Of a stretch of 64,000 nucleotides of DNA, positions 1 to 63,000 are shown piece by piece. This DNA is from an uncultured Verrucomicrobiae bacterium. GTDB taxonomy: Bacteria > Verrucomicrobiota > Verrucomicrobiia > Chthoniobacterales > UBA10450. Each line of letters begins with the position of its first letter. Within the stretch, counting starts at the first letter, position 1. Location of the stretch: positions 350,254 through 414,253 of the forward strand of contig CAVTMK010000002.1 of the NCBI GenBank assembly GCA_963735805.1. Direction: 5' to 3'. A program made the position numbers.

Positions 1-3000
1 AGCGTCCGATGGACGGCCAAGCGCGTTGGCAAATTCTTTTGAAACGACCAGTCTGCCATTCGTTATGGCGAGCGACTGCGCATTGGTGTCATATTCGTAC
101 TGCGACCCCTGGACATTAAAGAACGTGAATCCGGTGTTGCTGTCGCGCACGGCAAGATCGGACCCTTGACCCGAAGGAAGTTTTTCGACTACGAGCCGAT
201 TGAGAGATGCATTTAACGGTGCGGGAAAGGCCGCGCCATCCTGGGGGATCAACGCCATCGATCCTGGCTCGATCGCGCGAAACATGTTGTTGAAGATCAG
301 AATGGGAAAGAACGAGTTGGCCGCTACAGCGAAATGCACTTGCGGGAGATTTTGTCCCGCAGTCGCGGGATGGGAGCTGATTCCGTTCAACTGATTAAGA
401 TCGAGACTTAGCGTGACGGTTCCGTTCTCCACAATCATCTTTTGAAGTGTACCGGTCGCAGGGGTTGTAGCCACGGCGCTCTGCCGCCGTGCCGCCGTGA
501 GCGACGACCCTAGAGCGCCTCGACACAGCGAGGCGGCTACAACAACGAACACGAGTACAGAGAGTGTGAGAGTGATTAGAATTTTCTTTTGCATTGTTTT
601 TGTCCTCCGATTCCTCTTTGCGCCGGTTGTCCGGCCCGGCGAGTAAAGTTGTAACTTCTCTCACGGCAGGCGAACGCACGCCACGAAAAAATTATGGAAA
701 TTTCCGTGTGTGTAAGGCCGCGCCCTACACGTCACGAATTGGACAAGCGAGCGTCGCTCAACGGTGGATCGACTTCTCCTGAAAATGCCAGTCCGGTCGA
801 AGACTCGCCGTGGAGAGCTCGGACCGATGGCAAAGGGGTTCGCCGTAGGCGGCATAACATATTTTAGGCGGCAAGCCGCAAAGATTCCTAACCAACGCGT
901 TGAGGACAACGCGTTCCACCTGGCAAGCCAGCGCGCTGAGGAGTCGCCGCGGCGACCGTTCCACCCGAATCTCGAACCACGATTCACGACTAATGAATTT
1001 CGAATCACCGAGAACCTTTAATGTTTTAAGCCTTTGGTCTTTCCTTCCACCAGTCCTGCAGCTTCGCGATCCAGCGCGGCGTAATCGAGTTTGCGCGGCT
1101 GCAAATAAAATTCGTCAATGACGATCTGCACCAGCGCGGCGGCCGGGACGGCGAGAAAAACGCCCAACAAACCGAACATCGTGGCCGTGGCAAGGGTAAA
1201 GAACAAAATGTTGACCGGATGGAGTCGCATCTCTTTGCCCAGCACACCCGGCACAAGAACATTCAGCTCGACCTGGTAAACCAGCACGATCACGCCGAGA
1301 GCGAGCCAGAATTTGGTCGCGCCGAGACTCAACGCGACCAGCAGAATGGGAATCGCAACGAGAAACGCGCCGATGTTTGGCAGAAATTCACCGAGAAACG
1401 CAAACACGCCAAACATCAGCGCAGGCTGGACGCCGATCAGCCATAACGCGACGCCAATGGAGACGCCGGTAATAACGCCATTGATGGCGACACCGCGCGC
1501 CCAGGCGGTCATCTGTCGCATAAGCCTAACGAGAGTACGATGGGCTTGCGCGCGGTAGCGATCGGGCGCGAGCGCCAGGTATGCGGACACCAGCGGACGC
1601 GGGCTGGCCAGCACAAAGACCAGCAACAGAATAGCGAACACAAAGCTGGCGACGCCGCCGACCAGACCAATTGTGGACCGTAACAAAATGTTTCCCACTG
1701 TTCCGGCAGCTGCGCCGACTTTCCCGGCGATTTCATCGGTGCGCGGCAATGCCTGACGCACAGATGGATAATTTTTTGTGAGTGATTCGATGCGGGTGCG
1801 AACGCCTTGCCAGACTCCTGGCGCGTTGCGCATCAGTTCCTGGGTTTGTTTGGCCAGTGGCGGAATGGCAAAGACGATGATGGTGGTCGTAACGGTTAGC
1901 AGCGCAAGCACGAGCAGGATCACGCTGACAAAACGGGGAATGCGATGTTTTTCCAACCACACCACGATCGGGTTCAGAACCATCGCGAGAAGGAAAATCA
2001 GCGCGAATAGCAATATCACCGGTTCGAGCGAACGCACGATCAACCAGAAGACGATCAAGAGAAAAGCCAGCCAGACGACGCGCGATGCGCCGTGATAAGT
2101 CAGCGGCGCGTGCTGATCTTCGGATTCTTTCATGCGATGCGAATGCGATCTTGGCGCTAGCGAGTCGCAATGACAAGAAAGAGTGATCGGAGTGGTGGAA
2201 CGTCCGGCAGCTGCCGGACGGCTTGCCGCCTAATAATTATTTGCGCCTTTGGCGATCGGGTTTTCCCATCGGTCCGAGCTCTCCACTGCGAGTCTTCGAC
2301 CGGACTGGCGTTTTCAGGAGAATCCGATCCACCTTGGCTCACCCAGCACGACGGCAACTATATCTGCGGAGGCTGTACTCACGGCAGAAAGTTACCGGCC
2401 GTGGCCGGTGGTCGCCGCATTTGGAATTTATTGCATCCTGGAAGCGCCTCGACACCCACCACCGCGGGCAAGCTATGAGGCGGCTACTACTTTTCGGCGC
2501 GCGCGACCTGGTCACATCCCACCAAATTACGGCAGTGTAGGACGCGGGTGCGGAGTCGGACGGGGCCTGGGTGTCGCCCTGGGCGTAGCACTAGGTGTAG
2601 AAGTGGGTGTTGGAGAGGGAGTAGCTGTTGCCGTTGGTGTCGGACTGGGTGTAGGCGTAGATGTAGGTGACGGTGTAGGGGTAGGCGTACCTGTAGTCGG
2701 GACCATCGCATAGGCGTGGGTCTCACCTTCGTGAACGCCTGTGCCAACGATTATGTTATTCTCACTGATGGCGATGGCCGATGACGACGTGTTCATCGAC
2801 AAGTCCCAGCCCGAGTTGGCGGGAATGAGATCCTGCAGGCGAAATGTGTTGGTTCCGTCATACAGGAAAGGAACGGCAAAGGCCCCGCCATCAGTGCCCA
2901 CCGCCCAACCGGCTGAGTTCACACCCTGAGCTTCTCCTTCACTGGTATCGGGCGCGAGCGGAATCGCAACCATTCCGTTGGCTTCCGACCAGATGAACGG

Positions 3001-60000: not shown

Positions 60001-63000
60001 GCCAAAGCGATGCATCGTGCATCGCTTTGGCCACGTTTCGTCGACCCGAAATCTCAACTTCCTGAGAACTGCGGAAGAATCGCCCGACGTGGGCAAGCGT
60101 CATTTGGTTCTCAAAATAGAAAAGTGTTGAATCGCCCTTGGCCTGTCGGCTAACAATCGACGCAGTTAATCCTCTGCCTAATGAAAAAGAAATCTTACAA
60201 TTCACCTGACTTTCTTAAGCCACGCCTGCGAATCACACTGTCTGTCTTCCTGGTTAGCGTCGTGATCTCTGTGTTTGGCAATGCGTTTGCTCAGCCCCGG
60301 CGCGCGAAATCGTCTCTAGGCGCTCCGCAAAGGCAAAACGTCAAAGCTGCTCTCTCGCGAACTGATCAAAGCTTTTGGGCACAAACAAATGGCCCCCAAG
60401 GCGGCGATGGAATTGCATTAGCCACGAATGCGGGTGGGAACGTCTTCGTAGGAACCCAGGGAGGCGGCGTTTTTCGGTCCTCCGACAATGGAGAAACGTG
60501 GACCGAAATCAATAATGGACTTACCGACACGAACGTGCGCGCGCTGGCAATCAGCAGTGTCGGGCACATTTTTGCCGGAACGTTTAGCGGCGTGTTTCGT
60601 TCGTTGGATAATGGAGACAGCTGGGTTGCGGTCAACAATGGCTTGGAATTTCCTTCTGTTATCTCGCTGGCGATTAATTCCAGCGGAGACATTTTCGCCG
60701 GGACGTTTGCAGGCGGGGGCGTTTATCGGTCGACTGATGACGGCGATAACTGGACCTTGGTGGATAATGGCTTGACGAACACCTATGTCACGGCGTTAGC
60801 GATCAATTCCAGCGGAGACATTTTTACCGCGACATTTGGCGGTGGCGCGTTTCGGTCAACCGACAACGGAGACAGCTGGACCGGACTTAACACAGGGTTT
60901 CCTGATGGTACGTTTCTTTCGTTAGCCATCAACGCAAGCGGATACATTTTCGCAGGTGGCGATCCTCTTGGCGGTCCTGTCGGTGTGCTTCGCTCGACTG
61001 ACAATGGCGATAGCTGGGAGTCCGTGAATAACGGGTTAACTACGGGGAATGGTATCAACGCGCTAATAACTACTCCCACGGGATACCTTTTTGCCGCCAC
61101 CTATGGCGACGGTGTGTTCCGGTCGACGGACAACGGAGATAACTGGACACAGGTTAATGACGGATTAACGGACCATTTTGTTCTTTCCTTCGCTATCACT
61201 TCGACCGGAGACGTTTTCGCAGGGACCTATTTCGGCGGAGGAGCTTTCCGGTCGAGCGATAACGGAGAGTCATGGAACGAGAAAAACAGCGGGATCGTCG
61301 CGACCGAGGTCCGTACAATTGCGATCAGTTCGACTAACAACATCTTTGTCGGGACGTATGGCCTTGGCATGTTTCGATCAAGCGACAGCGGTCAGACCTG
61401 GGATAAGGTGAACAACGGACTGCTTGCGCTTTATGAAAGCGCCCTGGCGATCGATGCGAATGGCGACATTTTCGTAGGAGCTGATTTTGTAGGTGGATCT
61501 GGCGGTGTTTATCGCTCTACCGATAACGGAGACAATTGGGTAGAGATTAATCATGGCGTGATCCAAACGGATGTTCGGGCATTGGCGATCAATTCAAGCG
61601 GTCACATTTTGGCAGGGACATATTTTGGCGGTGGCGTCTTTCGATCGACAGACAATGGCGATAGTTGGACGCCGGTGAACAATGGTTTGGGGTGCGGAAA
61701 TATTTGGGCTCTGGCAATCAATTCAAATGGAACTGTCTTCGCTGGAACGGCTGGCTGCGGCGACGGCATCTATCGTTCCACTGACAATGGAGATAGCTGG
61801 ACACTTGCTAACACAGGTCTCACGTCTACCGATGTAGCTGCGCTGGCTATCAACGCTAGCAACGGATTCATTTTTGCCGGAACACATTCCATCATGGGTA
61901 AGGGCGGTGGTATGTTTCGATCCACTGACAACGGCGGCACCTGGACGGAACAAGATAATGGCTTCACAGCACTCGACGTGAACAGTGTGACGATCAACTC
62001 GATCGGCCACGTTTTCGCAGGCGCTGCAGGTGGAGTATTCCGATCGATAAATGACGCTGGCAATTGGAGTGACGTCAGTAACGGACTACTTCCTCCAGGT
62101 GGAAATGTATGGGCTGTGGCGATCGATTCCGGAGGATTTGCCTTTGCGGGTACTGCTGGCGGCAGTGTATTTCAAAGCGTACAACCGACGGTGAGATCTA
62201 CTCCCGTACCGAGACCTCGGCCGACTCCGAGGCCGCGCCCAACTCCGCCTTAGTCTGGCGATCTGCTCGATTGTGCAGGCGCGCCTGGCTGTCGGGGCGC
62301 TCCGGCGTCTTAGCGGGGAAACGCTAAGACGCATGTTACGGCACAAGAGCAAGTCACCACATCAGAATGTCACGGTCGCTTGATTAGAACAGGTGTTGGT
62401 GTTTCTGTTGCAGACTTGATATGTGAATGTGCCGGGAGGACGTCCTCCGATCCGATCGGTGTAAAAACCGCTGTTCCTGGGAGTCGCGATCAACACGCCG
62501 TTGCGATAAATGTCGACACGATTCGACGTTGCGCCGCTCCAGGATAAGTCGGCTCGGCGTCGCCCGTTTACCAGGTAGCCACTGGCACTTAGCGTGATTT
62601 GACCGGGTGTCGGTGTGGGTGTCACGGTCGGAGTTGCAGTGGGCGTGGGTGATGGAGTTGGCGTCGCAGTGGGAGTAGCCGTTGGAGTTGCGGTTGGTGT
62701 AGCCGTAGGCGTCACGGTGGGGGTAGGCGTAGCTGTCGGTGTAGGCGTTGCGGTCGGAGTCGCGGTGGGAGTTGCCGTAGGTGTCGGTGTAGGCGACGGC
62801 GCGCCGGTCGACTGCCTATCGTGGAACGCATCTTGCTGGGAACTACCGCCGATTGTCACGCGTCCATCAACCCAGGCATGAAGGTGCTGGCTAGCAGAGG
62901 AACTGGCATAATCATAGTCGCCCGCATAAACGGCCTGTATCCCCGGATCAGGTTGAAGCGGAAGCGGAGTCATTACGTCTGAAAATGCATCGTCAGGCAA

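What a model noticed while it worked through the whole genome (the two positions that open the first line are those of the whole stretch)
1..62253. Genus-specific C-terminal tail (Pro-Thr linker + [23 protein letters not shown]) shared by about 36 unrelated secreted protein [...]
About 36 proteins of this genome that are otherwise unrelated (Kelch and BNR/sortilin propellers, PQQ-like propellers, S8 and M14 peptidases, a cupredoxin protein, Big_5 and Chlam_PMP proteins and many family-less ones) end in the same module: 20-50 residues of (P/T/S/A)-P-T-P linker followed, at the very C-terminus, by a conserved Arg-Pro motif, consensus [12 protein letters not shown][HR]-P-R-P-T-P-P. Most carry an N-terminal signal peptide. 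Half of them lie in one 86-kb region (C2:326334-412506, g00744-g00793). The tail has no hydrophobic segment, so it differs from PEP-CTERM, LPXTG, GlyGly-CTERM and T9SS C-terminal domains; it behaves like a new, Udaeobacter-specific C-terminal sorting or surf [...]
Evidence so far: Regex survey of all 3396 proteins: 31 end with a PT-rich linker plus >=3 R and >=6 P in the last 20 residues. Alignment of 25 tails (A3): P/R columns invariant or >=90% conserved. A profile of A3 run over the six-frame genome gives 30 matches at E<=1e-3; 24 of them end within 3 nt of the stop codon of a called gene, 5 more sit just past apparent frameshifts or in uncalled frames at 3' ends (g00760, g00766, g00784, after g00787, near g02057), 1 is internal (g01357); union with the regex set is 39 genes. 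The DNA encoding the last 25 codons differs at most synonymous sites between paralogues while the peptide is kept, so the motif is held by selection on the protein, not by a repeated DNA eleme The finding spans contig positions 326334 to 412506; this window holds only 350254 to 412506 of it. [...]
(Added by a program. Inside this text positions count along the whole contig: contig position 350,254 is position 1 of the stretch shown here. "Call 12" and the like, gene names such as g00115 and contig names such as C1 are that model's own, and its searches are not shown. The text may have been shortened before it was handed on; [...] marks where a part breaks off. The agent that wrote the report below was given it as the finding of a first reader that could run no searches.)

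Follow-up and report, generated by a model that had tools for sequence, protein, structure and literature searches.

The report
Arginine-proline tail replacing dockerin-type end modules
About fifty exported, strongly acidic proteins of a common soil bacterium end in the same 20-residue arginine-proline tail, which swaps places with folded binding modules on near-identical proteins of relatives and likely tethers these proteins to negatively charged sugars on the cell surface.

Summary
The tail is real and larger than reported: 57 frames in the genome carry R-x-R-P-T-P-x-P-R-P, 50 within 3 residues of the stop, 21 in the window; reversed-pattern controls give 0-1. The peptide, not the DNA, is conserved. 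New here: the tail is one of several interchangeable end modules. On one propeller family, 81-94% identical homologues end in the tail (74 of 120), an Ig+dockerin module (27) or an FN3-like domain (7), with repeated swaps on the tree; distant homologues end in T9SS domains. Ig+dockerin is abundant in sister genera (30 of 36) and nearly gone in this genus (9 of 43). Passengers are all acidic; tails are +3 to +7, almost purely arginine. No membrane segment, no partner enzyme, and a few internal copies argue against a cleaved sorting signal. Best reading (0.5): a non-covalent cationic tether to anionic surface glycans, like the PRELP heparin-binding end. Corrections: expanded in, not exclusive to, the genus; about 20 passenger families, not 36 unrelated proteins; linker optional. 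No family model or paper found; no earlier scan note reports it. Function untested.

The parts
1..594 (-). 5' part of a secreted protein whose tail lies outside the window in a shifted frame (C2:348753-348977)
2527..3837 (-). HAF-repeat-like secreted protein; tail 2530-2595
3928..5433 (-). Chlam_PMP / choice-of-anchor Q protein; tail 3931-3996
5497..7041 (-). glucose/sorbosone dehydrogenase-family protein, leader B; tail 5500-5565
7222..8616 (-). Kelch propeller; frameshift in the linker, tail 7286-7351 in the other frame
8685..12141 (-). Kelch protein in two frames (leader piece 11182-12141, body 8685-11129); tail 8688-8753
12319..13797 (-). choice-of-anchor Q protein with tail 12322-12387 and no PT linker
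17173..18654 (+). secreted protein, leader A; tail 18586-18651
18777..18935 (+). orphan degenerate tail relic without a gene (below the 26-bit cut)
19454..23098 (+). paralogue of 56898-59975 (72%) with leader B but a different end, no tail
23974..27156 (+). Kelch multidomain protein, leader A; tail 27088-27153
27205..27234 (+). terminator-like hairpin shared by 7 tail genes (also 31780-31809, 34687-34716, 41635-41664, 44678-44709, about 56112-56141, and C2:334680)
27928..31731 (+). Kelch multidomain protein, leader A; tail 31663-31728
32033..34648 (+). S8 peptidase; frameshift in the linker, tail 34569-34634 in the other frame; 3' UTR 95% like that of 27928-31731
35403..37232 (+). S8 peptidase; tail 37164-37229
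38436..41588 (+). BNR-type multidomain protein, leader B; tail 41520-41585
42056..44632 (+). family-less secreted protein, leader B; tail 44564-44629
45043..46773 (+). BNR propeller; tail 46678-46743 followed by 9 residues
46899..48542 (+). BNR propeller; tail 48474-48539
48711..50420 (+). BNR propeller used for the swap analysis; tail 50352-50417
50679..52450 (+). BNR propeller; frameshift in the linker, tail 52382-52447 in the other frame
53141..56068 (+). propeller + Kelch protein, leader B; tail 56000-56065
56385..56663 (+). 3' remnant of a PQQ-like gene with linker and partial tail
56898..59975 (+). sortilin-like propeller protein, leader B; tail 59907-59972
60181..62253 (+). sortilin/BNR propeller; tail 62185-62250 with almost no linker
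62362..63999 (-). paralogue of 38436-41588 (57%) ending in PT linker + FN3-like module (62365-62610) instead of the tail

Best explanation
The tail is a 20-residue arginine-proline peptide that fills the end-module slot of exported acidic proteins, a slot held by Ig+dockerin and other folded binding domains in relatives, and it likely acts as an uncleaved, positively charged tether that keeps these proteins on anionic cell-surface glycans. Steps: (1) Sec export by the N-terminal signal (signal seen; export inferred). (2) Passage across the outer membrane, possibly by the type II-like machinery that the genome encodes (inferred; not specific to the tail). (3) The PT linker, where present, holds the tail away from the acidic body (inferred from its use before every other module). 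(4) Four to six arginines spaced by prolines in an extended chain bind phosphate, sulfate or carboxylate groups of LPS or exopolysaccharide, or soil colloids (inferred from composition and from the PRELP precedent). (5) The tail spreads by recombination in the low-complexity linker, sometimes with its terminator (shown at the DNA level for 7 genes), and it largely displaced Ig+dockerin in this genus (shown as a distribution; direction inferred).
For: Swap on one passenger: 74 tail, 27 Ig+dockerin, 7 FN3-like, 12 other/truncated of 120 homologues at 81-94% identity; tree of the core alone needs 14 changes for the tail, at least 4 forced by branches >=95, with tail/dockerin sister pairs P0051/P0071 and P0077/P0085 at support 98. 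In sister genera the same core ends in Ig+dockerin (11), NISTR repeats (8) or other (3), tail 0 of 22. Inside G000, paralogues of tail proteins end in FG-GAP, FN3-like or DUF2341-like modules. Leader A sits on tail proteins here and on dockerin-ending proteins in G051. Distant homologues end in T9SS type A domains (10 of 18 picked proteins over the cut-off), i.e. the passenger is a surface protein elsewhere; two window carriers have choice-of-anchor Q directly before linker/tail. The NISTR module folds like PPC/collagen-binding domains (Z 8.4-10.2, rmsd 2.3-3.5, 92-103 aligned). 42 of 42 bodies have pI <5.5 (genome 18%), tails net +3 to +7 with 201 Arg, 3 Lys, 1 Asp/Glu (genome Arg:Lys 1.6). 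Motif works away from the C-terminus in sequence terms: directly after a signal peptide, and twice before a cupredoxin domain. PRELP's Pro/Arg end, which contains PRPRPTP, binds heparin and anchors that protein (PMC2806584 passages).
Against: No binding, localisation or export was measured. What the displaced Ig+dockerin module binds is itself unknown (no cohesin PF00963 in G000 or 5 dockerin-rich genomes), so 'same slot' does not prove 'anchor'. Conserved Thr and frequent His (19 of 42 at one position) are more specific than pure charge needs and fit a protein receptor. 50 of 57 copies are terminal, which a position-free tether does not require. PRELP is an analogy between low-complexity peptides, not homology. 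NISTR modules coexist with the tail in 14 of 43 genus genomes. A cationic tail could instead fold back on the acidic body.
Confidence: 0.5

Rival explanations
1. Receptor-read address: the tail is a short linear motif recognised by a dedicated protein (an export component such as the type II-like system, or a surface scaffold), taking over the role of the dockerin-like module.
For: Meets 6 of Haft's 8 attributes of C-terminal sorting signals, including exchange with other signals in homologues (bioRxiv 2023.06.07.544157 section 5). Near-invariant R-P-T-P-x-P-R-P with saturated synonymous sites. G000 has a GspD-like secretin, GspE and 7 prepilin-like ORFs. Conserved leader A follows the tail across the genus (36 of 43, none in 5 tail-less genomes).
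Against: No partner beside 18 tail regions (82 tail-region ORFs scanned; window neighbours). Secretins are equally present in three tail-less genomes. Exosortase not found in G194 with 47 tails. Adjacent PIG-V-like glycosyltransferase found in only 20 of 43 genus genomes and not in several tail-rich ones. Internal and N-terminal copies and variable ends. Whole-proteome profiling could not be run.
Confidence: 0.22
2. Protective end cap: after loss of the folded module the bare PT linker needed a protease-resistant, soluble end; Pro/Arg tails were selected for stability, not for binding.
For: 29 of 50 tails end in Pro against 166 of 1844 long ORFs; the dockerin and FG-GAP modules also tend to end in Pro. 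The tail grades out of the linker and is easy to generate from it.
Against: Arg over Lys 201:3, near-absence of acids and a fixed R-P-T-P-x-P-R-P core go beyond protease resistance; tails occur without linker (6 of 50) and internally; trypsin-like cleavage resistance would not need arginine at all (own knowledge).
Confidence: 0.13
3. Ribosome-acting tail: like apidaecin-type peptides or Pro-rich arrest peptides, the nascent tail pauses termination so that the exported body folds while still tethered.
For: Resembles the apidaecin end PRPPHPRL (PMC11549390 passages); 45 of 74 BNR homologue tails end in Arg-Pro; Pro-rich C-terminal stalling of a secreted protein is described for CutF (bioRxiv 2025.02.05.636593 passages).
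Against: Apidaecin needs penultimate Arg and terminal Leu (PMC11347161 passages); 0 of 50 G000 tails end Arg-Leu, 8 of 50 have penultimate Arg, and the last Arg-Pro lies 1, 3, 4, 5 or 7 residues from the end. No conserved downstream gene; 7 are followed by a terminator. The modules it swaps with are folded extracellular domains.
Confidence: 0.08
4. Glycosylation tag: the motif recruits a periplasmic GT-C enzyme that glycosylates the tail or linker threonines, and the glycan anchors or protects the protein.
For: 13 PMT_2-family genes in G000; four membrane glycosyltransferase-like genes flank the C4:697818-705148 cluster (one with a Pfam hit, three judged by eye).
Against: PMT_2 genes are as common in tail-less G007 and in sister genera; the flanking enzyme does not track the tail.
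Confidence: 0.05

Closest known systems
Tripartite C-terminal sorting signals (PEP-CTERM, GlyGly-CTERM, MYXO-CTERM, LPXTG; Haft, bioRxiv 2023.06.07.544157)
   Same: C-terminal, many copies per genome, invariant residues, signal peptides, unrelated passengers, exchange with other ends in homologues
   Different: no transmembrane helix, arginines dispersed among prolines instead of a terminal cluster, no sortase-like partner found, internal copies exist
Non-cellulosomal type I dockerin (PF00404) with preceding Ig-like domain, and T9SS type A domain (TIGR04183)
   Same: occupy the same slot on the same passengers
   Different: folded 80-170 residue domains; the tail is a 20-residue linear peptide with no family hit
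PRELP Pro/Arg-rich heparin-binding end (PMC2806584)
   Same: terminal Pro/Arg peptide containing PRPRPTP on a repeat-domain extracellular protein; works as a polyanion anchor
   Different: animal, N-terminal, one protein; convergent low-complexity likeness, not homology; binding not tested for the tail
[quoted passage not shown]
   Same: P-x-P-H-P-R near the C-terminus; Pro-rich end of a secreted protein
   Different: no terminal Leu, no fixed register, part of large proteins, no regulated downstream gene

Membership tests
tripartite C-terminal sorting signal | [quoted passage not shown] | tested here: met
   50 of 57 within 3 residues of the stop; 4 long proteins carry it internally
tripartite C-terminal sorting signal | many copies per genome on passengers otherwise unrelated, with signal peptides | tested here: met
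   57 ORFs; 18-23 passenger groups; 38 of 43 with N-terminal hydrophobic stretch
tripartite C-terminal sorting signal | [quoted passage not shown] | tested here: met
   6 invariant and 2 >=90% columns in 19 window tails
tripartite C-terminal sorting signal | hydrophobic transmembrane segment followed by a basic cluster | tested here: not met
   max 19-residue hydropathy 1.36 in the last 80 residues of 50 tails
tripartite C-terminal sorting signal | homologues carry a different C-terminal signal or lack it | tested here: met
tripartite C-terminal sorting signal | co-occurring processing enzyme | tested here: inconclusive
   exosortase in G000 but not found in G194; nothing in neighbourhoods; full profiling not possible
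T9SS substrate | C-terminal type A/B domain | tested here: not met
   no TIGR04183 or other CTD hit in 20 window secreted ORFs
T9SS substrate | T9SS machinery in the genome | tested here: inconclusive
   SprA_N 0 of 5 genomes, but no control genome rang
dockerin-cohesin system | dockerin on passenger and cohesin scaffold in genome | tested here: not met
   PF00404 and PF00963 0 in G000, controls rang; cohesin 0 of 5 dockerin-rich relatives
type II PrAMP (apidaecin-like) | penultimate Arg with terminal Leu in fixed register | tested here: not met
   0 of 50 end Arg-Leu; 8 of 50 penultimate Arg
type II PrAMP / arrest peptide | ribosome arrest at the stop codon | not testable with these tools
   needs toeprinting
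cationic polyanion-binding terminal anchor (PRELP-like) | terminal Pro/Arg-rich, net positive, acid-free peptide on an extracellular protein | tested here: met
   PMC2806584 passages
cationic polyanion-binding terminal anchor (PRELP-like) | binds a polyanion, binding lost on deletion | not testable with these tools
   needs a binding assay

The most novel reading that the evidence does not exclude
Chthoniobacterales run an unrecognised surface-display system with a menu of interchangeable addresses (Ig+dockerin without any cohesin, NISTR jelly-roll repeats, FN3-like, FG-GAP), and Udaeobacter has shrunk the 170-residue dockerin address to a membrane-anchor-free 20-residue Arg-Pro peptide read by a dedicated receptor, paired with conserved N-terminal leaders: a new class of linear sorting signal in one of the commonest soil bacteria.
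Probability: 0.2. Interest if true: 0.85.

Novelty: new variant of a known kind. Interest (0 to 1): 0.62.

Why it matters
Ca. Udaeobacter is a globally abundant, little-studied soil genus (PMC7343977 abstract) that is thought to scavenge amino acids with proteases. The tail marks up to about 50 peptidases, oxidases and propeller proteins per genome, so it defines much of its surface proteome and gives a marker for it in metagenomes. It shows a folded terminal domain being replaced by a short peptide, saving about 150 residues per protein in a streamlined lineage. It also gives a handle on an open question (own knowledge): what dockerin-like modules do in bacteria without cohesins. A 20-residue peptide is cheap to test, and if it is a tether it would be a minimal surface-display tag.

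Tried and rejected
Family models: none for tail or leaders in Pfam, NCBIfam (whole proteins) or PDB sequences. Repeated DNA element as the cause: rejected overall, though 7 genes share a 3' cassette; only one tail gene is clearly an integron cassette. Patterns with MGN also match Ser, so most of the 53 of 247 non-genus matches and the order-level ones are Ser-Pro repeats; I fetched 19 Arg-containing places and kept 6. GTDB scan covered 6 of 64 parts: of 122 matches in 119 loci most are off-frame chance hits in GC-rich genomes; 4 are terminal tails with linker, 1 near-terminal. 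Phylum sample: max 7 per genome in 250, like the reversed control. Partner candidates dropped: cohesin, exosortase, secretins, PIG-V-like and PMT_2 enzymes; SprA search uninformative. Six distant homologues that end by eye in a hydrophobic segment plus basic residues got no CTERM model hit. Backup stop codons not enriched (6 of 42 vs 220 of 1802). RNA contigs of two runs of one study match pieces of two window genes without differences but do not show transcription and miss the frameshift sites, so real slippage versus assembly error is open. No complex prediction was sent: no candidate partner. Literature: searches 'Udaeobacter+secreted', 'dockerin+Chthoniobacter', 'C-terminal sorting signal/Verrucomicrobi/choice-of-anchor', recalled short end motifs of other phyla (47, nothing relevant), non-cellulosomal dockerin, arrest peptides and four literal tail strings found no description of the tail; PMC7343977 has no passage on it. 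No supplements were read; the library lacks most subscription papers.

Full report
Setting. The window is G000:C2:350254-414253 of a 3.52-Mb, 4-contig genome, 94% complete. Udaeobacter sp., 85% to a same-genus genome and 68-81% to sister genera.

Observation. Twenty genes and one gene remnant in the window end in R-x-R-P-[TS]-P-x-P-R-P-(T-P-P). Genome-wide a 22-position profile finds 57 ORFs, 50 ending within 3 residues of the stop (bias filters off, so bit scores are inflated), against 0-1 hits for reversed codon patterns. Three window genes have the tail in another frame behind a shift inside the linker repeat. Synonymous positions are near saturation (0.34 vs 0.27-0.30), so selection acts on the peptide. 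No Pfam, NCBIfam or PDB match exists for it. The carriers are Kelch, BNR, sortilin-like, PQQ-like and DUF5122 propellers, S8, M12 and M14 peptidases, a multicopper oxidase, a glucose/sorbosone dehydrogenase, choice-of-anchor Q proteins and family-less proteins, in 18-23 similarity groups. All 42 bodies measured are acidic; tails carry 201 Arg, 3 Lys and 1 acidic residue. 179 of 190 Arg-Arg spacings are 2, 4 or 6.

Limits of the first description. The linker is optional (6 of 50 have <=5 residues). The motif also stands directly after the signal peptide of a 960-residue protein (C2:1019943), twice before a cupredoxin domain (C2:602209) and 38-44 residues from the end in two more. The last Arg-Pro is 1-7 residues from the end. 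Seven genes, including an S8 peptidase and Kelch proteins, share tail, AT-rich spacer and a terminator-like hairpin found behind no other gene, which shows 3' ends being copied between unrelated genes.

Distribution. In 300 genomes of the family, 44 of 53 of the genus match, 35 with >=5 and 16 with >=20 copies, maximum 47. Four tail-less genus genomes tested also lack the BNR family. Elsewhere in the family true tails are single: 6 of 19 fetched places, three on contigs of 88 kb to 2.3 Mb, three on 2-4 kb contigs that may be mis-binned. In 250 genomes of the phylum no genome exceeds 7 matches, close to control. In a 6/64 sample of GTDB, terminal tails with linker came only from Verrucomicrobiota-labelled records and one record labelled Dormiibacterota whose Mfd and gene order are Udaeobacter-like.

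What the tail replaces. For the BNR core of window 48711-50420, the 120 best homologues (81-94% identical; only the best 120 of 7806 were listed) end in the tail, an Ig-like domain plus type I dockerin (PF00404 above cut-off in one of two tested), an FN3-like domain (7) or other/truncated ends. A tree of the core alone (126 rows; the 12 other/truncated and rows without the anchor motif left out; quick method) needs 14 changes for the tail label, at least 4 forced by well-supported branches, with tail and dockerin on sister tips; recombination within cores could blur this tree. In sister genera the core ends in Ig+dockerin, in repeats of an unnamed module starting N-I-S-T-R, or others, never the tail (0 of 22). 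Ig+dockerin is in 30 of 36 non-genus genomes, often dozens of times, and in 9 of 43 genus genomes at most three times; the NISTR module is in 14 of 43 genus genomes; G000 has neither. The NISTR module is predicted (pLDDT 82) as a PPC/collagen-binding-type jelly roll. Within G000, paralogues of tail proteins end in FG-GAP, FN3-like or DUF2341-like modules. Among 150 more distant representatives none has the tail by pattern, many end in dockerin-like repeats, and 10 of 18 hand-picked ones carry a T9SS type A domain above cut-off. A conserved leader (A) occurs in 36 of 43 genus genomes and 5 of 36 others, and in G051 it heads dockerin-ending proteins.

Mechanism. Shown: terminal position, protein-level conservation, charge contrast, exchange with folded modules, cassette-like spread. 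Inferred: export, surface location, binding. I commit to a non-covalent cationic tether (0.5): an extended Arg-Pro chain binding anionic LPS, exopolysaccharide or soil colloids so that enzymes stay near the cell. The nearest functional precedent seen is PRELP, whose Pro/Arg end contains PRPRPTP, binds heparin and anchors the protein (PMC2806584, passages). Against it: nothing was measured, the ligand of the displaced dockerin is unknown (no cohesin), and Thr/His conservation may point to a receptor (0.22). No such receptor or processing enzyme turned up: neighbours are housekeeping genes, and exosortase, secretins and glycosyltransferases do not follow the tail. A protective cap (0.13), an apidaecin-like termination pause (0.08; register and terminal Leu fail, although 45 of 74 BNR homologues end Arg-Pro) and a glycosylation tag (0.05) remain.

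Comparison and novelty. It meets six of Haft's eight attributes of C-terminal sorting signals but fails the transmembrane helix with terminal basic cluster (section 5 read), so it is not a member of that class; it works like a choice-of-anchor end module. Papers seen: bioRxiv 2023.06.07.544157 (passages and section 5), PMC11549390, PMC11347161, PMC2806584, PMC7343977 and bioRxiv 2025.02.05.636593 (passages); others as search listings only; no supplements. Nine searches found no description of the tail or of this set of modules in Chthoniobacterales; three look-ups of earlier scan notes found none either. Verdict: real, undescribed as far as searched, a new variant of terminal surface-retention modules; interest 0.62.

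Noticed in passing
window 17173, 23974, 27928 (leader A); 5497, 11182, 19454, 38436, 42056, 53141, 56904 (leader B): Two conserved, long N-terminal leaders on unrelated passengers; no Pfam hit; leader A in 36 of 43 genus genomes and on dockerin-ending proteins in a sister genus. Leader B was not searched across genomes.
   Followed up: partly
L017, L020, L026, L029, L030 C-termini (A3): Unnamed ~130-residue NISTR module, tandem pairs, dozens to hundreds of candidates per genome in sister genera; predicted PPC/collagen-binding-like jelly roll.
   Followed up: partly
L001-L025 C-termini (A2): Ig+dockerin module up to 45+ copies per genome with no cohesin found in 5 such genomes.
   Followed up: partly
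L047:4775-6265 (G000 C2:1270771-1272264): Kelch gene with leader A and internal tail lies between attC-like sites, i.e. an integron cassette (judged by eye).
   Followed up: partly
L081 / G331: Record titled Dormiibacterota has 11 tail matches, Udaeobacter-like gene order and Mfd 84% identical to G000; label or bin is probably wrong.
   Followed up: partly
L037:2193-5599 and 13401-16039 (G000 C4): Four multi-pass membrane proteins, one PIG-V-like, flank a cluster of four PQQ-like tail genes; probably GT-C glycosyltransferases.
   Followed up: partly
L039:307-1842, L044:1759-3267 and about 18 more in G000: Large family of secreted acidic proteins ending in a shared coiled-coil-like end; the two scanned have Peptidase_S74.
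   Followed up: no
3' flanks of tail genes, e.g. window 37233-37270: GTGAY within 36 nt after the stop in 15 of 35 tail genes versus 46 of 720 other genes with free 3' flanks; unexplained.
   Followed up: partly
L046:4468-5805, L048:4092-5675, G000 C4:248572-248763: A Cys-x-Gly-Arg-Cys motif between linker and tail in three genes, and a similar one in L013.
   Followed up: no
window about 7390, 34460, 52280: Frameshifts inside PT linkers cut the tail off three genes; similar shifts in about 5 of 120 homologues; slippage or assembly error not settled.
   Followed up: partly
window 1018-2133, 13964-15178, 15350-16882: Non-tail genes inside the cluster: AI-2E transporter, DEAD-box helicase, BesA/PGM1-like ATP-grasp ligase.
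   Followed up: no
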